Source: an uncultured Acidimicrobiaceae bacterium
GTDB lineage: Bacteria > Actinomycetota > Acidimicrobiia > Spongiisociales > ZC4RG35
Length of the DNA: 64,000 bases
Direction of reading: 5' to 3'
NCBI GenBank assembly: GCA_964571765.1
Contig: CAZNDH010000008.1
Coordinates: 141-64,140 of the forward strand
The notes below the pieces were generated by a model. That model saw nothing but the letters and a program-made list of their open reading frames with translations, ran no database searches and was not told the DNA's origin. Position numbers and translations under genes: made by a program. This document shows positions 1 through 9,271 of the stretch, in pieces; the first letter of the stretch is position 1, and every line of letters starts with the position of its first letter.

Positions 1-3000
1 TCTGGCCTCGACCTTCTCCACCACCTCGACCCGGGCGACCACCTTCCCGACTCCGCCGTTGGGTGAGTCGACGAAGTCGGCTGCCCGCTGCAGCACTTCG
101 ATGTCGCCCTCGGCGGCGGCGTCGGTCAGGTCGAGCTGGATGCCGGCCTCCACAGCGAGACCTTTGGGCGGTTCGGCTAGCTCACCGTCACGCACAGGCG
201 GGACCTGAGCCAGTTCGTCTCGCTCCAGGTACTCCACTCCGAGGGCCCGGAACACATAGTCGATGATCGAGTTGGCCATCTTGATGTTCTGATGCCCTTC
301 GACCATGCCCCGGGGCTCGAAGGTCTGGAAGGTGAAGGTGTCGACGTACTCGTCCAAGGGCACCCCGTACTGGAGTCCCTTCGACACCGCGATGGCGAAG
401 CAGGAGAGGATCCCTTTGAGGGTGGCGCCCTCCTTGGCCAGGTCGATGAATATCTCGCCGAGGGTCCCGTCGTCGTACTCGCCGGTGCGCAGGTACACCT
501 TGTGACCACCGACCCGGGCCTCCTGGTTGAAGCCGGAGCGTCGCGCCGGGAGGAGGAATCTGGGCGGCTGCAGACCCTGGGCATAGGCTTGAGTCGGAGA
601 GAGCCCCTTGGGCAGGTTGCCCCAATGGATCGCTTTCTCCGCCTCGACCGCAGCAGTCACCGCGGCTTCCTCGTCTTCGCTCTCCTCACCCTCGTCCGAG
701 GTGGAGTTGAGTGGTTGGGCCGCCTTGGAGCCGTCCCGGTAGATGGCCATCGCCTTCAAGCCCAGCTCCCAGGAGACCCGGTAGGCCTCCTCGATGTCCT
801 CCACCGTGATCTCGTTGGGCATGTTGATCGTGTTGTGATTCACGATTCCGTTACCCAGGAAGGCGTGGGTGTCGGGGACCGAAATGTCGAAGACCTCCTG
901 GTGTCCAGCGTCCGAGACCTCGATCACCGGACTGAAGTGGAGGTCATCAATGAGGACCTCCACCAGCCATTCGGGCAGCTCGACACCTGGCACCATGGCG
1001 ACCCGCTCCAGCGTGCGACGACTCACATGTACTGTCCTCGGGTCGTTGAGGAATGAGAAGCGGAGGCGTTCGCTGTGACCGCCCTGATCGAGTCGATCGA
1101 GCGGCATCATCCGATACAGCTCGGGTCCGGTTATCCCGGGGACGACATCGGCAGTCGATTGTGAGAAGTCCCTCTCGAAGAGCGTTTCGGCACGTGCTGC
1201 CTTGTCGGCCTCGACGAAACGAACGAGCCGCGCCAACCGTTGGGCCGCAGCACCGGCGGCGTACACCTCGTGGTATGTGCGTCCCGATACCTTGTTCGGC
1301 TTCGCACTACGACCATGGACCACGCCCAGGTTGGTCAGGACCGCCTGCAGATCGTCAGTCAAACCCTTCGAGGCGACGGTGATCCCCATCTTCGCCGAGC
1401 CTGACAGGGTGACGTACCCATCGAGGAACACACCCGACAGGAACTCGAGGATCATGTGCCGGGGCGAACGGAGGACCGCGTCGGGTATGCGCTTCTCCAG
1501 AGCGGTGTGACCCACCCCGAGATAATCGAGGAATTCCACGATGGTCTTCGAGGACACTTGCACACCTGGGCATCGGTCGCGGTGGCGTCGGATCGGTGCC
1601 TCGACACCGAACAACTGAGCCCAGCTCCGGGAAACGCGTTGGAGGACGCCCTCGTCGGAGTTGGTCACGGTGACGGTCCAGTTGGTTCTGGTCATGTGGC
1701 CCTCGGCAACGATGGCCCCCAACAGGAACGCCAACTCCGCGGTCATCTCTGCCGGAATGCTCACCTTCTTCTGCCCCCCGTATGACGCAGTGGGAGTGAA
1801 GTCATCGAAACGGGCTGGCAGCGCCGACCACATGTCGGCTCCATACCGCGTGGCCGCGTACTCGCCGGGCCGGATCTCCGACAGTGTCCGCCATTCGAGA
1901 CCACCGGGGACCGAGACCAGGAGTCGGTGGTTCGGAGTTCCTATGACCTCGTGGCCGGAACGCAGCTCGACCCTTCTGACCTGGCGCACTCCTCCGTAGT
2001 AGAAGGCGTCGGTCTTGCGACTGCCGTTGCGGGAGGCAACCTCCATGACGTGGTCACGGAACGAATCGGGAGCCTCGTCTCGATGCAGGGACCCAATGCG
2101 GACCAGGCCATCCTCTGTGGTGATCAGCGTTTCACCGATGACGCACTTCGAGATCGCCCCCGAGATGAAGGGTTGGGCGGCGGCCATCATCAGGATGTGC
2201 CCGTTGTGGTGGATGAACCGCTCCCCGTACTTCCCGTTGCGGTTGGCGGTGTCGAACACCGGGAGGTGCTCCTCCCTGACGTGAGGGGCGCCCTCGATGG
2301 TCTGGCGGCCGCAGATGTGATCGTTGGCCTCGCTGATCTGCGCCGAGGTGAACCCGAGCGCCTTGAGCAGGTTGAAGTCCCAGGAGGTGTACTCGTCGGC
2401 GGTGAACCCGATCCGCTGCAACGTCTCCTCGCCGAAGGTGAACACGTTGAAGGCGTGCTTCAACTCGAACACCGAAGGCAGGGTCTTGGCCAGCCTCTCC
2501 AGATCCTCGTCGACGAAGCCCTTGTCCAGGAGGGATTCCCGGTTGACATGAGGGGCGCCGTCGATCGAGCTGGTCCCGACGATGTACTCGACTATCTCGC
2601 CGATCTGGTCGGCGTCGTAGCCGAGGTGGCGCAAGGCCGGGGTCACCGACTGGTTGACGATCTTGAAGTAGCCGCCGCCGGCCAGCTTCTTGAACTTGAC
2701 CAGGGCGAAGTCCGGCTCCACTCCGGTGGTGTCACAGTCCATCAGAAGGCCGATGGTTCCCGTAGGCGCAATGACCGTCGCCTGGGCGTTGCGGTAACCG
2801 TTGGCCTCGCCCAACTCGATTGCCTGATCCCAGGATGATCGGGCGGCGTCGAGCAGGTCGTCGGGACAGAGGTCGGGGTTGATGCCCACCACCACATGGC
2901 TGACACCCTCGTAGGAAGGCTCGTCGTATGCGGCGCGGCGGTGGTTGCGGATCACCCGGAGCATCGACTCCCGGTTCTCCCCGAATCGGGGGAAGGGGCC

Positions 3001-4545
3001 GACCACACCCGCCATCTCCGCCGAGGTGGCATAGGCCAATCCGGTGAGGATCGAGGTGAGGGCACCGGCGATCGCCCGCCCCTCTTCGGAGTCGTAGGCG
3101 ATCCCCTGGCGCATCAAGAGCGAGCCGAGGTTGGCGTACCCCAGACCCAGGGTCCGGTAGTCGTAGGAGCCCTGGGCGATCTCCGGGGAGGGGAAGTGGG
3201 CCATCGCCACCGAGATCTCGAGGACGATCGTCCAGAGTCGGATGGCGTGTTGGTAGCCCTCGATGTCGAACACCCCGGTGGAGTCGTCGTAGAACCGGAC
3301 CAGGTTGATCGAGGCCAGGTTGCAGGCGGTATCGTCGAGGAAGAGATACTCGGAGCACGGGTTGCTCGCCCGGATCCGCCCGCCGGCCGGGCTGGTGTGC
3401 CACTCGTTGATGGTGGTGTCGAACTGGAGGCCGGGGTCGGCACAGGCCCATGCGGCGTCGGCGATCCGCTTCCACAGGTCACGTGCCTTGACCGTCTTGC
3501 GCACCGCACCATCGGTGCGGTTGGTCAGGTCCCAGTCGCCGTCGTCGAGCACCGTCTGGATGAAGTCGTTGCTCACCCTCACCGAGTTGTTCGAGTTCTG
3601 ACCGGAGACGGTGGCGTAGGCCTCCCCGTTGAAGTCGGCCGGATAGCCGCCGTGCTGGATGAGGACCCGTGCCTTCTCCTCCTCGACTTTCTTCCACTCG
3701 ATGAACTTCTCGATGTCGGGATGGTCGACGTCGAGAATCACCATCTTGGCGGCGCGACGGGTCGTGCCCCCCGACTTGATCGCGCCGGCGGCCCGGTCAC
3801 CGATCTTGAGGAACGACATCACCCCCGACGACTTGCCCCCACCGGAGAGACGCTCGTTCTCTGAACGGATCATCGAGAAGTTGGACCCGGCTCCGGAGCC
3901 GAACTTGAAGATCCTCGCCTCGCGGACCCAGAGGTCCATGATCCCACCCGGATTGACCAAATCGTCGCGCGCAGACAGGATGAAACATGCATGGGGGGCG
4001 GGGCGGCTGTAGGAGTCGGGGGAGGCGGTCAGCTCATCGCCGGCACCGTCGACATACCAGAAGCCCTGAGCGGGACCTTCCAGCCCGTATGCCCAGTTGA
4101 GCCCGGTGTTGAACCACTGGGGGGAGTTCGGTGCCGCCATCTGGGCAGCGAGCATGTACTTGAGCTCGTCTTCGAAGGCCTCGGCATCCTCGGGAGAGGC
4201 GAAGTAGCCCTCCTTCTCGCCCCAGTGGCGCCAGGTGCCGGCGAGGCGGTCGAACACTTGCTTGGCGGAGCGCTCCGGGCCGAGCACCGGCTCAGCGGCC
4301 TCGTCGAACAGCTGGATGCCCTCCTCGTCGAACTGGGGGACACCCGCCTTGCGGAAATACTTCGACACCATGATGTCCGAGGCCACCTGACTCCATTGGG
4401 CAGGGATCTCCGCTCCGGTCATCTCGAAGACCACCGAGCCGTCGGGGTTGCTGATCCGGGAGTCCCGATAGGTCCACTCGAAGGTGTGGTAGGGGTCCTT
4501 GCCGACCTCGGTGAAGCGTCGGGTGATCCGCAAGCCTTCGCTCAT
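1..4545 (-). CDS. nrdJ: Class II (adenosylcobalamin-dependent) ribonucleotide reductase, intein-containing; 3' end lies beyond window start
   Basis: Not in the ORF track because the frame runs off the left edge. ATG is at 4545-4543, preceded by GAGGAGG (reverse complement of 4552-4558). I hand-translated long stretches of the minus frame: 4545-4441, 3840-3781, and continuously 2160-481 and 60-1. I met no stop in any of them. Sequence read includes MSEGLRITRRFTEVGKDPYHTFEWTYRDSRISNPD..., GGKSSGVMSFLKIGDRAAGA, GAISK|intein|TINMPNEITVEDIEEAY, RSGFNQEARVGGHKVYLRTG. These are typical NrdJ motifs. The region between 3780 and 2160 was read less rigorously. Confidence 0.9.
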   Translation of the reverse strand, partial: MSEGLRITRRFTEVGKDPYHTFEWTYRDSRISNPDGSVVFEMTGAEIPAQWSQVASDIMVSKYFRKAGVPQFDEEGIQLFDEAAEPVLGPERSAKQVFDRLAGTWRHWGEKEGYFASPEDAEAFEDELKYMLAAQMAAPNSPQWFNTGLNWAYGLEGPAQGFWYVDGAGDELTASPDSYSRPAPHACFILSARDDLVNPGGIMDLWVREARIFKFGSGAGSNFSMIRSENERLSGGGKSSGVMSFLKIGDRAAGAIKSGGTTRRAAKMVILDVDHPDIEKFIEWKKVEEEKARVLIQHGGYPADFNGEAYATVSGQNSNNSVRVSNDFIQTVLDDGDWDLTNRTDGAVRKTVKARDLWKRIADAAWACADPGLQFDTTINEWHTSPAGGRIRASNPCSEYLFLDDTACNLASINLVRFYDDSTGVFDIEGYQHAIRLWTIVLEISVAMAHFPSPEIAQGSYDYRTLGLGYANLGSLLMRQGIAYDSEEGRAIAGALTSILTGLAYATSAEMAGVVGPFPRFGENRESMLRVIRNHRRAAYDEPSYEGVSHVVVGINPDLCPDDLLDAARSSWDQAIELGEANGYRNAQATVIAPTGTIGLLMDCDTTGVEPDFALVKFKKLAGGGYFKIVNQSVTPALRHLGYDADQIGEIVEYIVGTSSIDGAPHVNRESLLDKGFVDEDLERLAKTLPSVFELKHAFNVFTFGEETLQRIGFTADEYTSWDFNLLKALGFTSAQISEANDHICGRQTIEGAPHVREEHLPVFDTANRNGKYGERFIHHNGHILMMAAAQPFISGAISKCVIGETLITTEDGLVRIGSLHRDEAPDSFRDHVMEVASRNGSRKTDAFYYGGVRQVRRVELRSGHEVIGTPNHRLLVSVPGGLEWRTLSEIRPGEYAATRYGADMWSALPARFDDFTPTASYGGQKKVSIPAEMTAELAFLLGAIVAEGHMTRTNWTVTVTNSDEGVLQRVSRSWAQLFGVEAPIRRHRDRCPGVQVSSKTIVEFLDYLGVGHTALEKRIPDAVLRSPRHMILEFLSGVFLDGYVTLSGSAKMGITVASKGLTDDLQAVLTNLGVVHGRSAKPNKVSGRTYHEVYAAGAAAQRLARLVRFVEADKAARAETLFERDFSQSTADVVPGITGPELYRMMPLDRLDQGGHSERLRFSFLNDPRTVHVSRRTLERVAMVPGVELPEWLVEVLIDDLHFSPVIEVSDAGHQEVFDISVPDTHAFLGNGIVNHNTINMPNEITVEDIEEAYRVSWELGLKAMAIYRDGSKAAQPLNSTSDEGEESEDEEAAVTAAVEAEKAIHWGNLPKGLSPTQAYAQGLQPPRFLLPARRSGFNQEARVGGHKVYLRTGEYDDGTLGEIFIDLAKEGATLKGILSCFAIAVSKGLQYGVPLDEYVDTFTFQTFEPRGMVEGHQNIKMANSIIDYVFRALGVEYLERDELAQVPPVRDGELAEPPKGLAVEAGIQLDLTDAAAEGDIEVLQRAADFVDSPNGGVGKVVARVEVVEKVEAR
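832..2145 (-). mobile_element. Intein (438 aa) with LAGLIDADG homing-endonuclease domain, inserted in nrdJ between ...GAISK and TINMPNE...
   Basis: Cys1 codon TGC is at 2145-2143 (CVIGETLITTEDGLVRIG). Block B reads GTPNHRL. Two LAGLIDADG motifs are present: LAFLLGAIVAEGH and ILEFLSGVFLDGY. The C-terminus reads DTHAFLGNGIVNHN (Asn codon 834-832), followed by the +1 Thr (ACG 831-829). The element is in frame with both exteins. Confidence 0.85.
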
Positions 4546-4618
4546 CTGTAGTGCCTCCTCGCACTCGTGCCCTGGCCGGGCCTTTGACTACTCAACAGAA
4601 CTCTGTTGACAAGTTTCA

Positions 4619-4665
4619 CCACAAGATGTAGTGGTGCGCGGGGAAGTGTCCACAACATCTGGTAT
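4619..4665 (-). promoter_or_regulatory. Two tandem NrdR-box-like 16-mers in the nrdJ leader
   Basis: Box 1 is 4619-4634, CCACAAGATGTAGTGG, embedded in the 20-bp inverted repeat CACCAC-N8-GTGGTG. Box 2 is 4650-4665, CCACAACATCTGGTAT. Against the published NrdR-box consensus acaCwAtATaTwGtgt I count 12/16 and 10/16 matches. Their centres are 31 bp apart, which is the usual tandem spacing. Confidence 0.5.
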
Positions 4666-4675
4666 GGACTTCAAC

Positions 4676-4704
4676 ACTGTAATTACACGCGTGTCACAGG
4701 TCAA
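4676..4704 (-). promoter_or_regulatory. Putative sigma70-type promoter of nrdJ
   Basis: The minus strand reads TTGACC (4704-4699), a 17-nt spacer, then TACAGT (4681-4676). It sits just upstream of the NrdR-like boxes. Confidence 0.35.
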
Positions 4705-4712
4705 GTACCCAG

Positions 4713-4721
4713 TTATCCACA
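4713..4721 (+). promoter_or_regulatory. Perfect DnaA box TTATCCACA upstream of the nrdJ promoter
   Basis: Exact 9-mer seen in sequence. A second near-match, GTGTCCACA, lies at 4646-4654 and overlaps NrdR-like box 2. Confidence 0.35.
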
Positions 4722-4869
4722 ACCTCTGAACAGCCGTTTGCGGGCGGGCGCCAGCCCAGGCGACGGGGAAGTCAGCGCTCAACAGGCCCGGGGGAAGTGC
4801 CCGAACCATAGAGCCCGAGGTCGGCCCCGACCAGCAGGGACCGACCTCAGATTTCGCGGTCTTCTCGGG

Positions 4870-5058
4870 TCAGGGACGTCGGTCCCGACCTACGGTGCCG
4901 ATGATGATGGCGACTCCGATCACCACCAGGACCAGGGGGCCGATCAACCGGAGGTCGACGAGCCGGATGGTCCACACCCCGAGGGCTTCGAGGAAGAAGA
5001 CCACCCCGATGATGATGAACACCACCCCGGCGAGAAGGGTTCCACGGTGAAGGTTCAT
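4870..5058 (-). CDS. Small hydrophobic membrane protein (62 aa)
   Basis: ORF track entry. Two predicted TM stretches (AGVVFIIIGVVFFLEALGVW, IGPLVLVVIGVAIIIG). The ATG at 5058 overlaps the upstream stop as ATGA. Confidence 0.5.
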   Translation of the reverse strand: MNLHRGTLLAGVVFIIIGVVFFLEALGVWTIRLVDLRLIGPLVLVVIGVAIIIGTVGRDRRP

Positions 5059-5699
5059 CTGCGCACCTCGATCTTTCCCGCCCCCACATTGATCTCGAGG
5101 GTGAGACTCTCCGATGCGGTATCGAAGTCAGGGTCGGTATAGCTCAATCGTGGCGACAGCCCGTCGGCGCGCTCACCGAGAAGGAGTATCTCGCCCGCCC
5201 CGACCGTGGCCTCGATCTTCACCGGCAGATCAGCGGGCGCGATGAGTTGGATCTCACCGGCGGCCACCCCCACCTTCACAACGACCGGCTCGGTTACCGT
5301 CAGGCCGCCCAGATCGAGCCGCACCTGTCCCAGAGCCACGCCATAGCTGGCTTCTAGATCGCTCTGCTGGGTGACGGTTATGTTCCGCTGTCCGATCCCT
5401 CCGGAGAACCCGACGGGGGTCAGGGCCACCACCAGGGTGGCGATGCTGAGAAACACCCCCAGGGTGATCAGACCGGGGTGACGCCCCCGGAAGGCGCCGG
5501 CCACCAGGGCGACACCCACTGCGGCCAGCGCCGCCGGCAAGACCAGGCGAGGGCTGAGGTCGAGCACGTCGGTGGCATCGAGGAGCCACAACACCCCGAG
5601 CACCACCAAGATGGTCCCGGCAACGATGGCGCCGTAGGGCCGACCCCACTCCTGGGGGACTTCCCTTTCCGGGCTGTCAGGAACTTCAGGCGCGGTCAC
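5055..5699 (-). CDS. LiaF-like cell-wall-stress membrane protein (N-terminal TM segments plus C-terminal beta-rich LiaF/DUF2154-like domain)
   Basis: The C-terminal repeats VVVKVGVAAGEIQLIAPADLPVKIEATVGAGEILLLG...LEINVGAGKIEVRR resemble the LiaF C-terminal domain. The start is uncertain: the track gives TTG at 5711, I prefer GTG at 5699. Confidence 0.6.
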   Translation of the reverse strand: MTAPEVPDSPEREVPQEWGRPYGAIVAGTILVVLGVLWLLDATDVLDLSPRLVLPAALAAVGVALVAGAFRGRHPGLITLGVFLSIATLVVALTPVGFSGGIGQRNITVTQQSDLEASYGVALGQVRLDLGGLTVTEPVVVKVGVAAGEIQLIAPADLPVKIEATVGAGEILLLGERADGLSPRLSYTDPDFDTASESLTLEINVGAGKIEVRR

Positions 5700-6108
5700 G
5701 ACGGCTCCCAAGGTAGATCAGCGCCACACCGGCGACGATGATCGCCGCCGGCCAGAACACTCGTCCCAGCCACGGCATGTACTGTCGGGCGAGGAGGAAC
5801 AAACCCATCCCGACCAGAAAGACGCCGGCGATCACCGAGCCCTCGGGGCCGATCGGGTTCCCGGCGCGGGCCGGATCTCCCGGCCTCTCCTCGGGGATGA
5901 CGATCCAGGCGACGATATAGATCAGGATCCCCGACCCGCCGGCCAGGGCGAGCACAACGAACCCCAGCCTGAACCACAGCGGATCGGTGCCGAAGTACTG
6001 GCCCAGGCCTCCAGAGACCCCGGCGATCATCCGGTCCGTGGCGCTTCGGGTCAGCCGGCCAGGCCCCGGTGACTCCTCGGGCGGGGGAGTCGGTTCGGTT
6101 TCGGACAT
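5686..6108 (-). CDS. PspC-domain membrane protein
   Basis: LTRSATDRMIAGVSGGLGQYFGTDPLWFRLGFVVLALAGGSGILIYIVAWIVIPE is a classic PspC domain. ATG at 6108 is preceded by GAGGAGG, so I prefer it to the track start at 6135. Confidence 0.8.
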   Translation of the reverse strand: MSETEPTPPPEESPGPGRLTRSATDRMIAGVSGGLGQYFGTDPLWFRLGFVVLALAGGSGILIYIVAWIVIPEERPGDPARAGNPIGPEGSVIAGVFLVGMGLFLLARQYMPWLGRVFWPAAIIVAGVALIYLGSRRDRA

Positions 6109-6193
6109 GTGTGCCTCCTCTGCTCCCCTGGGCAATCATTCTCGAAGACCGCACCGGGTGCAAGGGCCAGAAGTCCCACCCAGTTGGTTGGCG

Positions 6194-6694
6194 TCAGTCG
6201 ACGTCGACTCTGAGGTCGAGGCTCCCGTCGCGCCAGCGCGCTCTCACCCTCACCTCGGAGGTCTCGCCGACCAGCTCAACGCGCACCTCGGGAGGGCCCG
6301 GGTCGTCGACCGCCACGGCGAATCCCGGGTTGGGGACCGCCGACAGGTAGGTCACGCTTCCGGGAGCCACCCGGATGGTGACCGTCCCTCCGACGGTTGG
6401 AATCACCACGGTTTCGGGTCCATATCCTGGGTCCTCCGGGGCCACTACGGGCGGGGACGAGGTCACCGTTGGGTTGAGGGAAGTGGTGCCGTGGCTCGGC
6501 GTGGTGGTCGGCGAACTCGTCGAGGCAGGCTCGCCGGGCGCGGTCGAGGTGGGGAGGCCGGGAGCGGCCACGTCGAGGGGTGCTCCTGCCCGGATCCCGA
6601 TTCGGTCGTCGGCGGCGCCGACTATCTGCCAGGTGACCGTGGTCGCCACCAGGAGCGCGGCCAACCAGGCCGCCACTGATCGCCACCTCATCAT
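6194..6694 (-). CDS. Secreted or membrane-anchored protein with Ser/Thr/Pro-rich linker and C-terminal beta-rich domain (paralogue of 8744-9271)
   Basis: The N-terminus is MMRWRSVAAWLAALLVATTVTW. A PTSTAPGEPASTSSPTTTPSHGTTS linker follows. The C-terminal domain reads GGTVTIRVAPGSVTYLSAVPNPGFAVAVDD...VRVRARWRDGSLDLRVDVD. Confidence 0.55.
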   Translation of the reverse strand: MMRWRSVAAWLAALLVATTVTWQIVGAADDRIGIRAGAPLDVAAPGLPTSTAPGEPASTSSPTTTPSHGTTSLNPTVTSSPPVVAPEDPGYGPETVVIPTVGGTVTIRVAPGSVTYLSAVPNPGFAVAVDDPGPPEVRVELVGETSEVRVRARWRDGSLDLRVDVD

Positions 6695-6795
6695 GGTGCG
6701 ATCTTGCCCCGGCCGATGGCAAGCCACTCCCAAGGAAAGCTCAAGTAATCCTCAAGGCCGCTGGTGAGCTGCGTCTCCGCCGATAGGCTCCGGGG

Positions 6796-7479
6796 GTGGC
6801 GCGCATCGTCCTCATCGAAGACGACGTGGAGATCCGCAGGCTGGTAGCCGACGCCCTTGCCGGGGAAGGCCATGACGTGGAGAGCACCGATCGAGCCCTC
6901 CCCGGGTTGGAGCTGGCGGTCAAGGGGCGTCCCGACCTGGTGTTGATGGATCTGGGGCTCCCCGACATCGATGGGACCGAGTTGCTGCGGATGCTCCGGG
7001 CGGTGTCCGACGTACCCGTGGTGGTGATCACCGCTCGCGGTGGCGACGACGTTGTGGTCCGCACCCTCGACGCCGGTGCCGACGATTACCTGGTCAAGCC
7101 GTTCTCGGTGTCCCAGCTCGAGGCGAGGGTCCGGGCAGTTCTCCGTCGTGGGGCTGGTGGCGACATCCCCACGGTGCACCGGGTGGGCGGCCTCGAGGTC
7201 GACGTCGCCGCCCGGGAGGCCACGCTCGACGGGTCCCCGCTCGATCTCAGCCCCAAGGAATTCGACCTGCTCCGTGTCCTCGTCGAGCGGCGCGGGCAGG
7301 TTGTCACCAAGAGAGACCTGATGGCCGAGGTCTGGCGCGAGCCCTACGGCGGCGCCGAACGCACCATCGACGTCCATATCTCCTGGCTGAGGAAGAAGCT
7401 GGGGGAGAGCGCCCACAAGCCCAGATATCTGCAAACCGTCCACGGCGTCGGGGTGAAGCTCGTCGATCCCGCCAAGTGA
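6796..7479 (+). CDS. OmpR/PhoB-family response regulator
   Basis: Receiver motifs are present (IVLIEDD, DLVLMDLGLPDIDG, KPF). A winged-helix output domain is also present (LSPKEFDLLRVL..., YLQTVHGVGVKL). Confidence 0.9.
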   Translation: MARIVLIEDDVEIRRLVADALAGEGHDVESTDRALPGLELAVKGRPDLVLMDLGLPDIDGTELLRMLRAVSDVPVVVITARGGDDVVVRTLDAGADDYLVKPFSVSQLEARVRAVLRRGAGGDIPTVHRVGGLEVDVAAREATLDGSPLDLSPKEFDLLRVLVERRGQVVTKRDLMAEVWREPYGGAERTIDVHISWLRKKLGESAHKPRYLQTVHGVGVKLVDPAK

Positions 7480-8741
7480 GACGGAGCCTCGCCTTTCTCA
7501 GCCTGGCCATCACCACCCTGGTGGTGATCTCACTCCTCGTCCCTCTCGGGCTTCTGGTGCGTCGTCAGGCATTCGACCAGGCTCGGGTCGAGGCCGAGCG
7601 CGAGGCCCGCTCCACTGCTGCCCTGGTCGCCCTGGCCCTCAGCTTCGATGCCTCCACAGGGGCCATCGAAGGCGCAGTCGGCCCGTTGCCTCCGGGAGTG
7701 GTGGTGGTGGTCTCAGACGGGGATACCTTTGGTGACCCTCTGCCTGATCAGGGAACCCTGGTCGAGGGCTCGATGGGTCTCAAGGCGACGGTCACCGCCG
7801 TGGTCCCGGGGGGCTGGGAGATCGCTTTCCCGGTCATCGGTCGCGATCGGGTCGCGGTGGTCGACGTGTTCGTCACCGACGAGGAGCTCGGCGAGGGTGT
7901 CGTCGGGGCATGGCTGCTCCTCGGACTGCTCGGGCTGGTGCTGGTAGGTGTGGCAGTGTGGGTCGCCGACCGGCTGGGGAGGCGACTGGTGGCGCCGGTC
8001 CGGGAACTGGCCGATGCGGCCCATCGCCTCGGTGAAGGTGACCTCGAGGTCAGGGTGGCTGCCGCCGACCCCGAGGAGCTGCGTGAGGTGGCTTCCGCCT
8101 TCAACACCCTGGCGGCGCGTCTCGGCGGGCTCCTCGCCGCAGAGAGGGAGGTCGTGGCCGACATGTCTCACCGGCTCCGCACCCCGATCACCTCACTCCG
8201 GCTCCAGGCGGAGCGGGTGGCCGATCACGCCGACCGGGCCGACATCGTCGCCCAGGTCGATCGTCTCGAGGAGGCGGTCGACGCCCTCATCGTCGGCGCC
8301 CGTACCCGGGGAAGTGCCGTGGGGAGTTGCCATCTCGACGAGGTGGTGTCCCGGCGTGCCCGGTTCTGGGGGGTCCTCGCCGAGGAGCAGGATCGGACCA
8401 TGGGGCTGAGCACCGCCTCCGGCGACGCCGAGGTGGCCCTGGCCCCGGAGCAGGTGGAGGACATTGTCGATGCTCTGGTGGGCAATGTCTTCAGCCACAC
8501 CGCTTCGGGTACCGCCTTCGAGGTGGCCACCGGGGTGACCGGCGGGACCCCTTGGCTCCAGGTCGCCGACCGGGGCCCCGGGGTCGGCGACCTCAACCTG
8601 GTGCGGAGGGGCGCGAGCACCTCGGGGTCCACTGGTCTGGGTCTCGATATCGTCCGCCGCACCGCCGAGCTCAGCGGAGGGGGTGTCGAGGTCGGTGATC
8701 GCGCCGGTGGTGGCGCCGAGATCACCGTGTGGCTGGGCTGA
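7476..8741 (+). CDS. Sensor histidine kinase
   Basis: GTGA overlap with the regulator stop. Two TM segments, a HAMP-like region, an H-box (VADMSHRLRTPITSL) and a G-box (GSTGLGLDIV). Confidence 0.85.
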   Translation: MRRSLAFLSLAITTLVVISLLVPLGLLVRRQAFDQARVEAEREARSTAALVALALSFDASTGAIEGAVGPLPPGVVVVVSDGDTFGDPLPDQGTLVEGSMGLKATVTAVVPGGWEIAFPVIGRDRVAVVDVFVTDEELGEGVVGAWLLLGLLGLVLVGVAVWVADRLGRRLVAPVRELADAAHRLGEGDLEVRVAAADPEELREVASAFNTLAARLGGLLAAEREVVADMSHRLRTPITSLRLQAERVADHADRADIVAQVDRLEEAVDALIVGARTRGSAVGSCHLDEVVSRRARFWGVLAEEQDRTMGLSTASGDAEVALAPEQVEDIVDALVGNVFSHTASGTAFEVATGVTGGTPWLQVADRGPGVGDLNLVRRGASTSGSTGLGLDIVRRTAELSGGGVEVGDRAGGGAEITVWLG

Positions 8742-8743
8742 GG

Positions 8744-9271
8744 TCAGGTCCGTCTGATCTCGATCTCCAGCCGCCCGTCGGACCTCAGCCTGATCTCGAA
8801 CCGGGCCTCGGCATCTCCCCTGCGGAACTCCAGGCGCACCCGGTCGTGCCGGGCGTCCTTGATGCGGACTTCCCAGCCAGGGGCCGAAATGTCGGTGATG
8901 ACCAGGGCACCCAGGCTGGTCTCCACCGTGACCGACCCCACCCCCGGGATGTGGAAGGTGCCCCCGCCCTCGGCGGCCGTCTTCCGCTCGACGGTGGTTG
9001 AAGTCGAGTCCCCCCCGGCGGTGGTGACGCTCGTCGAACTGCCCGCCGAGGTCACACTGGTCGAGCTGCTCGCCGTGGTCACAGTGGTGGACGTGCTCGA
9101 GGGGAGGGTGACCCCGGTCGCCGACGTGCTCGAGGCGGCCAACCCGGCCGAAAGGTCGAGAGCGGTCTCGGTCTCAACGGGGCTCCCGTCATCACCAGCC
9201 GCCCAGGCGACGCTAACCGCGAGCAGCGCTGCGGTGATAGAGGTGGATACTCCCAACAACTTCCTCGTCAT
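8744..9271 (-). CDS. Secreted Ser/Thr-rich protein, paralogue of 6194-6694
   Basis: ATG at 9271 is preceded by AAGGAGG. The signal-like N-terminus is MTRKLLGVSTSITAALLAVSVAWA. A poly-S/T linker follows. The C-terminal domain reads GGTFHIPGVGSVTVETS...APGWEVRIKD...VRLEFRRGDAEARFEIRLRSDGRLEIEIRRT. Confidence 0.6.
   Translation of the reverse strand: MTRKLLGVSTSITAALLAVSVAWAAGDDGSPVETETALDLSAGLAASSTSATGVTLPSSTSTTVTTASSSTSVTSAGSSTSVTTAGGDSTSTTVERKTAAEGGGTFHIPGVGSVTVETSLGALVITDISAPGWEVRIKDARHDRVRLEFRRGDAEARFEIRLRSDGRLEIEIRRT

What the first reader, a model, noticed from the sequence alone, without database searches (positions are those of the whole stretch)
832..2145. LAGLIDADG intein inside a nrdJ gene that the ORF track does not show
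The largest gene at the left edge is missing from the six-frame track because its frame never closes inside the window. The track lists only antisense artefacts there. Hand translation shows a class II RNR interrupted at the conserved ...GAISK / TINMP... active-site-proximal motif. The interruption is a 438-aa element with every intein hallmark: Cys1, a TxxH block, two LAGLIDADG motifs, a terminal HN, and a +1 Thr. This is a selfish mobile genetic element in an essential gene. The apparently intact endonuclease motifs suggest it may still be capable of homing.
Basis: partly seen in the sequence, partly recalled or inferred. Interest (0 to 1): 0.6.

Follow-up and report, generated by a model that had tools for sequence, protein, structure and literature searches.

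The report
Ordinary homing intein in nrdJ
The vitamin-B12 ribonucleotide reductase gene at the left edge of this Acidimicrobiia genome carries a complete, well-preserved self-splicing intein with its own DNA-cutting enzyme; it is real, but it is an ordinary member of a large, already catalogued family of such selfish elements.

Summary
Window 1-4545 (minus strand) is one open 1515-aa frame that runs off the window and the contig. It encodes a long class II ribonucleotide reductase (NrdJ). Residues 801-1238 (window 832-2145) are a 438-aa in-frame insert between GAISK and TINMP. Intein-free NrdJ from six species of the same genus, and a solved NrdJ structure, run straight across that junction.

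The insert has every class 1 intein residue: Cys1, TPNH, block F Asp, His-Asn and +1 Thr. It also has two LAGLIDADG motifs with their acidic residues, Glu148 and Asp242. Its predicted fold (pLDDT 92) matches intein homing endonucleases.

It belongs to a large same-site family. Relatives were found in 207 species genomes, and all 80 examined are intact, 429-444 aa and at the same site. They occur in Actinomycetota and Eremiobacterota. RNR is the second commonest bacterial intein host.

The intein and host-gene trees disagree strongly (AU p 4e-4 and 2e-5), and identical vacant target sites exist, so past horizontal homing is well supported. Present endonuclease activity is inferred, not shown. 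NrdJ is the only RNR detected in the genome, so splicing must work.

Verdict: real, correctly interpreted, ordinary.

The parts
1..4545 (-). nrdJ precursor ORF: class II, adenosylcobalamin-dependent ribonucleotide reductase with one intein. It is 1515 aa in the window and 1561 aa to the contig end. The last few residues are missing because the contig ends.
2146..4545 (-). N-extein, aa 1-800. It holds Ribonuc_red_2_N and the RNR barrel domain, with the NPCSEY active-site motif, and ends ...PFISGAISK.
832..2145 (-). Intein, 438 aa (precursor residues 801-1238): CVIGETL...GNGIVNHN.
2143..2145 (-). [quoted passage not shown] Invariant in 81/81 family members.
1927..1941 (-). Block B GTPNH (Thr70, His73). 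Invariant in 81/81.
1216..1770 (-). LAGLIDADG homing-endonuclease core, intein aa ~126-310. The model shows two alpha-beta-beta-alpha-beta-beta-alpha halves.
1699..1734 (-). LAGLIDADG motif 1, LAFLLGAIVAEG. The catalytic acid Glu148 is kept in 80/81.
1417..1452 (-). LAGLIDADG motif 2, ILEFLSGVFLDG. The catalytic acid Asp242 is kept in 77/81.
949..1215 (-). Helical region between the endonuclease core and the C-terminal splicing strands, intein aa 311-399. It is the least conserved part. An extra DNA-contacting domain is a possibility, but this is inferred only.
859..894 (-). Block F VFDISVPDTHAF. Asp420 is invariant in 81/81; His427 is kept in 62/81.
832..837 (-). Block G His437-Asn438, needed for Asn cyclisation. 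Invariant in 81/81.
1..831 (-). C-extein, starting with +1 Thr (codon 829-831): TINMPNE... It continues through the TSCPD domain towards the Cys-rich tail.
4619..4665 (-). Two NrdR-box-like 16-mers upstream of nrdJ, ATACCAGATGTTGTGG and CCACTACATCTTGTGG, with starts 31 bp apart. These are context and not part of the intein.
   Evidence: also noted by earlier finding e1-3597772

Best explanation
Window 832-2145 (-) encodes a canonical class 1 intein with an embedded double-motif LAGLIDADG homing endonuclease. It is inserted in frame between Lys800 and Thr801 (spliced numbering) of the only ribonucleotide reductase of an uncultured Acidimicrobiia bacterium.

The gene is translated as a ~1565-aa precursor. 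The inferred splicing route is the standard four steps. First, Cys1 attacks the Lys800 carbonyl (N-S acyl shift, helped by block B Thr70/His73 and block F Asp420). Second, the +1 Thr hydroxyl takes over the N-extein by transesterification. Third, Asn438 cyclises, helped by His437, and releases the intein. Fourth, an O-N shift leaves the native ...GAISK-TINMP... peptide bond. This yields an active ~1125-aa NrdJ and a free 438-aa protein.

The free protein (or the precursor) is predicted to recognise the ~20-40 bp uninterrupted GAISK/TINMP-coding DNA of intein-free nrdJ alleles. It would cut both strands with the Glu148/Asp242 metal site, so that repair from the intein-bearing allele copies the intein in (homing).

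Shown here: the insertion, all catalytic residues, the fold, family membership, purifying selection, and a history of horizontal movement between nrdJ alleles. Inferred: that splicing occurs (required, since no other RNR was found) and that the endonuclease of this particular copy is still active (I put this at about 0.6-0.7).
For: Insertion and coordinates.

The host is NrdJ.

Orthologues lack the insert and are collinear across the junction. Six same-genus species align over residues 1-1056 to 1-1077 at 83-87% identity. SKTIN is identical in all 39 relatives. The spliced extein aligns without a gap to PDB 7b9p and 1xje.

Intein models exceed their cut-offs. The best PDB sequence matches are VMA, GyrA and DnaB inteins.

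The AF2 model has pLDDT 92 and pTM 0.91. Foldseek gives the TliVMA intein 7qss at TM 0.71, E 4e-27, followed by PI-PkoII, PI-PfuI (itself an RNR intein), PI-SceI and I-DmoI.

Family: 207 species genomes and 588 proteins hold relatives. All 80 examined sit at the same site, are 429-444 aa and have no stops. Catalytic residues are invariant or nearly so. This copy departs from consensus at only 6 of 155 columns that are >=90% conserved, against a family median of 4.

dN/dS is ~0.1-0.2 in the endonuclease core, like the Hint part and the extein.

Mobility: eight site-bearing alleles need eight state changes on the extein tree. The intein tree is incongruent with it (AU p 4e-4 and 1.6e-5). GC3 steps from 0.89 to 0.76 to 0.85 inside one ORF.

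Vacant targets: same-genus alleles differ by as little as 1 nt in +/-21 bp. Five intein-free metagenomic nrdJ genes carry an identical 39-bp site.

Sole RNR and sole intein in the genome.

Mechanism and homing cycle as reviewed in PMC7765530. RNR is the second commonest bacterial intein host, with 211 inteins (PMC4760082).
Against: There is no experimental evidence for splicing or DNA cleavage of this copy.

dS values exceed 1, so they are saturated and the dN/dS figures are approximate.

No co-conversion tract is visible around the site. The closest intein relative is only 79% identical, so no recent homing event can be traced.

The groups used in the AU tests were named after the trees had been seen.

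The MAG is ~90% complete, so a second RNR on a missing contig cannot be excluded.

The lower GC3 of the intein could reflect weaker codon selection rather than foreign origin.
Confidence: 0.92

Rival explanations
1. The intein is splicing-competent but its endonuclease is no longer active. Either it no longer finds targets, or it is in the late, pre-degeneration phase of the homing cycle, or it is kept only because the endonuclease domain has become structurally necessary for splicing.
For: No recent transfer is detectable. The nearest relative is 79% identical and there is no co-conversion tract. This copy has non-conservative changes at two highly conserved endonuclease positions, C256T and L263T. 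Reviews note cases where removing the endonuclease domain inactivates splicing (PMC7765530).
Against: Both catalytic acids and the flanking glycines are intact. Purifying selection on the endonuclease core is as strong as on the splicing domain. No mini-intein or stop-containing derivative appears among 80 same-site relatives. The intein and extein trees are strongly incongruent, which needs an active mobility function in the family's history.
Confidence: 0.3
2. The intein has been co-opted as a conditional post-translational switch. Splicing, and so maturation of the only RNR, would respond to a signal such as redox state, so that dNTP supply is gated at the protein level.
For: NrdJ is the only RNR detected. 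The intein sits in an invariant barrel motif, so the precursor is very probably inactive. The nucleophile is a Cys, and one further Cys (C192) is invariant in 81/81 relatives. Conditional splicing has been reported for other replication and repair inteins (PMC4513877 and PMC11409957, listed).
Against: Only 1 of 10 assessable species in the genus, and 4 of 57 relatives, have this intein. Each carrier's nearest NrdJ relative lacks it. That is the pattern of a selfish element, not a retained regulator. Nothing here tests conditionality.
Confidence: 0.07
3. It is not an intein. It would be a lineage-specific insertion domain of NrdJ, an assembly chimera, or a disrupted pseudogene.
For: The gene lies at a contig end.
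Against: The reading frame is uninterrupted over 4.5 kb. The boundaries fall exactly on Cys1 and His-Asn|Thr, and the flanks rejoin into an invariant motif. All intein profile models pass. The same arrangement occurs in hundreds of independent assemblies, including cultured Micromonospora, Actinomadura and Sphaerisporangium.
Confidence: 0.01

Closest known systems
Same-site NrdJ inteins of other Actinomycetota and Eremiobacterota. Examples are Micromonospora haikouensis DSM 45626, Actinomadura physcomitrii LD22, Sphaerisporangium spp. and many Acidimicrobiia or Nitriliruptorales MAGs. NCBI names them 'LAGLIDADG family homing endonuclease' or 'vitamin B12-dependent ribonucleotide reductase'.
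   Same: They share the insertion point (GAISK|C...HN|T[IV]N), the size (429-444 aa) and all splicing and endonuclease catalytic residues. Full-length identity is 54-79%.
   Different: This is simply another allele. Its nearest relatives are two Acidimicrobiia MAG inteins at 79% identity, and its host genus otherwise lacks the element.
PI-PfuI (Pfu RIR1-1 intein of the Pyrococcus furiosus class II RNR, PDB 1dq3) and the InBase 'RIR1' intein alleles rir1-a...m
   Same: It is the same kind of element in the same host enzyme family: a full-size class 1 intein with a double-motif LAGLIDADG endonuclease. The fold match has E 4.6e-18. RNR is a classic intein sink (PMC4760082; rir1 alleles in PMC4071816).
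   Different: Sequence identity is only ~15%. The Pyrococcus-type RNR profile places its matching intein upstream of the extein segment that corresponds to residues 398-646 here, so it is at a different site. I could not map this GAISK|T site to an InBase allele letter with the tools available.
Thermococcus litoralis VMA intein (PDB 7qss), a homing-endonuclease-associated intein
   Same: It is the best structural and sequence match among solved structures: TM 0.71, 23% identity, phmmer E 3e-16. It has the same Hint-endonuclease-Hint order and a similar length of 432 aa.
   Different: Its host protein is the V-ATPase A subunit and it comes from a different domain of life. The region 311-399 aligns poorly.
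PI-SceI (Saccharomyces VMA1 intein), the experimentally characterised paradigm for intein homing
   Same: Same architecture and same presumed mechanism of splicing plus double-strand cleavage of the empty allele. Foldseek probability is 1.0.
   Different: TM is only ~0.47 and identity 12-14%. PI-SceI activity is demonstrated, whereas activity here is inferred.

Membership tests
Class 1 intein (Hint splicing domain) | In-frame insertion that is absent from orthologues, with flanks that rejoin into the normal host sequence | tested here: met
   Intein-free NrdJ of 6 same-genus and >30 other relatives is collinear across the site. The spliced extein aligns without a gap to PDB 7b9p and 1xje.
Class 1 intein (Hint splicing domain) | N-terminal nucleophile (Cys/Ser/Thr at position 1, block A) | tested here: met
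   Cys1 at window 2143-2145, invariant in 81/81.
Class 1 intein (Hint splicing domain) | Block B Thr-x-x-His | tested here: met
   T70-P-N-H73, invariant in 81/81.
Class 1 intein (Hint splicing domain) | Block F Asp, block G penultimate His and terminal Asn | tested here: met
   D420, H437 and N438 are invariant in 81/81.
Class 1 intein (Hint splicing domain) | +1 extein nucleophile (Cys/Ser/Thr) | tested here: met
   Thr, codon 829-831. Thr in all 80 relatives.
Class 1 intein (Hint splicing domain) | Match to curated intein profiles and the Hint fold | tested here: met
   PF14890 scores 52.3 bits against 35.8; TIGR01445 38.5 against 24.5; TIGR01443 28.7 against 15.6. The model matches intein structures.
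Class 1 intein (Hint splicing domain) | Actual protein splicing: free intein plus ligated exteins | not testable with these tools
   Inferred from intact residues and from nrdJ being the only RNR found.
LAGLIDADG homing endonuclease (monomeric, double-motif) | Two LAGLIDADG motifs, each ending in a catalytic Asp/Glu followed by Gly/Ala | tested here: met
   LAFLLGAIVAE148-G and ILEFLSGVFLD242-G. E is kept in 80/81 and D in 77/81.
LAGLIDADG homing endonuclease (monomeric, double-motif) | Profile match and alpha-beta-beta-alpha-beta-beta-alpha fold, twice | tested here: met
   PF14528 scores 51.8 bits against 22.5, in two stretches. I-DmoI and I-Tsp061I match at target-normalised TM 0.66-0.70.
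LAGLIDADG homing endonuclease (monomeric, double-motif) | Site-specific double-strand cleavage of the intein-less allele | not testable with these tools
   Indirect evidence only: purifying selection, tree incongruence and conserved vacant sites.
Class II (adenosylcobalamin-dependent) ribonucleotide reductase NrdJ (host protein) | Curated equivalog models and domain set | tested here: met
   TIGR02504 scores 561.6 against 399.95 and NF005122 scores 1161.8 against 859. Pfam finds Ribonuc_red_2_N, Ribonuc_red_lgC and TSCPD. The NPCSEY active-site motif is present.
InBase RIR1 allele (rir1-a...m) assignment | Same insertion point as a named InBase allele | tested here: inconclusive
   The papers available name the alleles but do not give the junction sequences. 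The site differs from the Pyrococcus-type intein position in NF006207.

The most novel reading that the evidence does not exclude
The intein is more than a parasite. It sits in an invariant barrel strand of the organism's only ribonucleotide reductase, uses Cys1 and carries a second family-invariant cysteine (C192). It could therefore act as a redox- or stress-sensitive splicing switch that gates dNTP synthesis post-translationally.
Probability: 0.06. Interest if true: 0.55.

Novelty: new member of a known kind. Interest (0 to 1): 0.15.

Why it matters
It matters little beyond correct annotation. The gene should be called an intein-containing nrdJ, not 'LAGLIDADG family homing endonuclease' as several database relatives are named. 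Its length and the missing closed ORF are explained by the intein and by the contig edge.

Two modest points of value remain. First, the Acidimicrobiia order sampled here uses at least six different intein insertion sites in NrdJ. Every carrier of this site's intein has an intein-free nearest relative, which makes a clean natural data set for studying the homing cycle. Second, the family is an untapped source of full-size Cys1/+1 Thr inteins and of LAGLIDADG enzymes with a defined, highly conserved 40-bp target.

Tried and rejected
1. Co-conversion tract. I made a sliding-window nucleotide comparison of the spliced extein against 6 same-genus intein-free alleles and 7 intein-bearing alleles. 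There was no local dip or rise around codon 800. All alleles are 70-90% identical throughout, so they are too diverged to show a recent event.

2. dS as a clock. The intein dS (1.3) exceeds the extein dS (0.74) against the same partner genome. However, dS is saturated and GC3 differs between intein and extein, so I do not use this as evidence of transfer.

3. Phage vectors. A tblastn search of 50,697 phage records found only <=27%-identical inteins in other host proteins such as helicase and RecA. No phage copy of this family turned up.

4. Same-population intein-free allele. An exact 39-bp spliced-junction search of metagenome contigs gave 5 vacant alleles, but all are from other species, at 69-82% nucleotide identity.

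6. RNA elements. No Rfam match, including no cobalamin riboswitch, in window 1-9000.

7. Kinship of the nearest intein donors. The tool does not report it for genomes reached through loci.

8. InBase allele letter. It could not be assigned from the accessible literature.

Full report
**Observation**

With open-ended frames allowed, window 1..4545 on the minus strand is one 1515-aa ORF.
- It starts at ATG 4545, 8 nt downstream of GAGGAGG.
- It has no stop.

The window is C8:141-64140 of a 2.17-Mb, 79-contig, 66% G+C, ~90% complete assembly. With the extra 140 bases the frame reaches 1561 aa and still runs into the contig end, inside a C-terminal CxxC...CxxC tail.

The insert CVIGETL...GIVNHN is residues 801-1238. 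That is window 832-2145 and 438 aa, exactly as reported.

**Host protein**

- Pfam finds Ribonuc_red_2_N, the RNR barrel domain and TSCPD.
- NCBIfam equivalogs for adenosylcobalamin-dependent RNR pass their cut-offs: TIGR02504 at 561.6 against 399.95, and NF005122 at 1161.8 against 859.
- No second PF02867 hit, no class I small subunit (PF00268) and no class III NrdD (PF13597) is present in the assembly, while control genomes were detected in each search.
- NrdJ is therefore the only RNR detected, so the intein must splice for the cell to make dNTPs. This is an inference, limited by the ~90% completeness.

**The insert is foreign to NrdJ**

- In 61 related genomes, six species of the same genus have NrdJ collinear with the spliced extein over residues 1-1056 to 1-1077, at 83-87% identity.
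- The junction reads ...PFISGAISKTINMPNE... in all of them, and SKTIN is invariant in 39/39 sequences.
- The spliced extein aligns without a gap across the junction to solved NrdJ structures 7b9p and 1xje.

**The insert is a canonical intein with an endonuclease**

- Pfam Intein_splicing and LAGLIDADG_3 (two stretches), and NCBIfam intein_Nterm and intein_Cterm, all exceed their curated cut-offs.
- The best solved relatives by sequence are VMA, GyrA, DnaB, RadA and RecA inteins.
- An AlphaFold2 model built on an 81-sequence alignment has mean pLDDT 92 and pTM 0.91.
- By Foldseek it matches the TliVMA intein (7qss, TM 0.71, E 4e-27). Next come PI-PkoII, PI-PfuI (itself an RNR intein), PI-SceI, and the free-standing LAGLIDADG enzymes I-Tsp061I and I-DmoI.
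- Residues and nucleotide positions were verified for Cys1, GTPNH, LAFLLGAIVAE148G, ILEFLSGVFLD242G, block F, His437-Asn438 and +1 Thr.
- These are the residues of the four-step class 1 splicing pathway as reviewed in PMC7765530.

**Family**

- A scan of one genome per species found 207 genomes encoding a relative.
- A protein search found 588 proteins at E <= 1e-10. All the best ones are long NrdJ proteins, often with further inteins, up to ~2600 aa.
- All 80 loci retrieved carry the element at the same site (GAISK|C...HN|T[IV]N). They are 429-444 aa and have no stop codons.
- Hosts are Acidimicrobiia, Nitriliruptoria, Actinomycetes (including cultured Micromonospora haikouensis, Actinomadura physcomitrii and Sphaerisporangium) and Eremiobacterota/Vulcanimicrobiota.
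- C1, T70, H73, D420, H437 and N438 are invariant. E148 is kept in 80/81 and D242 in 77/81.
- The endonuclease region is as conserved as the splicing region.
- This copy departs from consensus at 6 of 155 columns that are >=90% conserved, against a family median of 4.
- dN/dS is ~0.1-0.2 in the endonuclease core, similar to the Hint part and the extein, though dS is saturated.

**Mobility**

Within the order, NrdJ is an intein hot spot with at least six sites:
- HA|CF
- GSG|T
- AIK|S
- NP|C
- PTG|T
- ISK|T

This intein's site (ISK|T) is occupied in only 4 of 57 relatives, each in a different genus. In its own genus it is occupied in only 1 of the 10 species that can be assessed.

The extein tree follows taxonomy. 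On it, the eight ISK|T-bearing alleles included need eight changes of state, so each has an intein-free nearest relative.

The intein tree groups this copy with the inteins of hosts from distant extein clades (G017, L058). It excludes the inteins of closer hosts (G024, G033). Forcing host-congruent groupings is rejected on both data sets: AU p 4e-4 on intein data and 1.6e-5 on extein data. The groups were chosen after the trees had been seen.

GC3 drops from 0.89 (N-extein) to 0.76 (intein) and rises again to 0.85 (C-extein). The genome's genes average 0.80 +/- 0.055.

Vacant target sites are highly conserved:
- Same-genus alleles differ by as little as one base in +/-21 bp.
- Five intein-free metagenomic nrdJ genes share an identical 39-bp site.

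Together these results show the family has moved horizontally between nrdJ alleles. That is what an active homing endonuclease does.

They do not show a recent event:
- The nearest relative is 79% identical.
- No co-conversion tract is visible.
- No phage carrier was found.

**Comparison with what is known**

RNR is the second most common bacterial intein host, with 211 inteins in many phyla including Actinobacteria (PMC4760082). Multiple named RIR1 insertion alleles exist (PMC4071816).

Everything about this element is canonical: architecture, residues, host, sporadic distribution and incongruent phylogeny. Earlier notes of this scan describe an equivalent 440-aa nrdJ intein elsewhere as a well-known kind, and I agree. 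I could not assign the InBase allele letter for the GAISK|T site.

**Verdict**

This is a new member of a known kind, of low interest. The only less ordinary reading not excluded is a regulatory, conditional-splicing role in the sole RNR. The sporadic distribution argues against it.

Noticed in passing
window 4619-4665 (-): Two NrdR-box-like 16-mers, ATACCAGATGTTGTGG and CCACTACATCTTGTGG, with starts 31 bp apart. They lie ~75-120 nt upstream of the nrdJ ATG. No cobalamin riboswitch or other Rfam match occurs in 1-9000. No nrdR gene lies directly upstream; the next genes look like PspC/LiaF-type membrane proteins.
   Followed up: partly
loci L043-L055 (relatives G002, G007, G009, G013, G014, G016, G024, G025, G038, G047, G053): NrdJ of this Acidimicrobiia order is an intein hot spot with at least six insertion sites: HA|CF, GSG|T, AIK|S, NP|C (the catalytic Cys), PTG|T and ISK|T. 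G024 carries two full-size inteins in a 1979-aa frame. G009 carries a 139-aa mini-intein plus a 433-aa intein. Four species of the window's own genus each carry inteins at different sites.
   Followed up: partly
L044, L049, L050, L051, L053 (NP|C-site inteins): The inteins at the catalytic-cysteine site end in Ser-Asn (for example GVLVSN|C) and not His-Asn, so they lack the penultimate block G histidine.
   Followed up: no
G053:C12:435928-441679 (L054): The nrdJ of this relative appears as four or more separate matches in different open frames, one with an internal TAA. It may be a fragmented or decaying multi-intein nrdJ, or an assembly problem.
   Followed up: no
window 832-2145 compared with 1-831 and 2146-4545: There is a sharp codon-composition step inside one ORF. 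GC3 is 0.89 in the N-extein (0.97 in the last 100 codons before the intein), 0.76 in the intein and 0.85 in the C-extein.
   Followed up: partly
proteins P0005, P0008, P0012, P0015, P0115 and others: Public annotation often names the whole 2000-aa intein-containing NrdJ 'LAGLIDADG family homing endonuclease', and in one case 'polymorphic toxin-type HINT domain-containing protein'. These names hide the essential host enzyme.
   Followed up: no
L099, L104, L108, L131: In a few same-site relatives the extein flanks contain a stop within 190 aa upstream or 90-240 aa downstream of the intein. These may be shorter C-termini, further interruptions or broken genes.
   Followed up: no
intein aa 192 (window ~1570-1572): A cysteine in the endonuclease domain (DRCP) is invariant in all 81 family members. 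It is not part of any motif I know to be catalytic.
   Followed up: no
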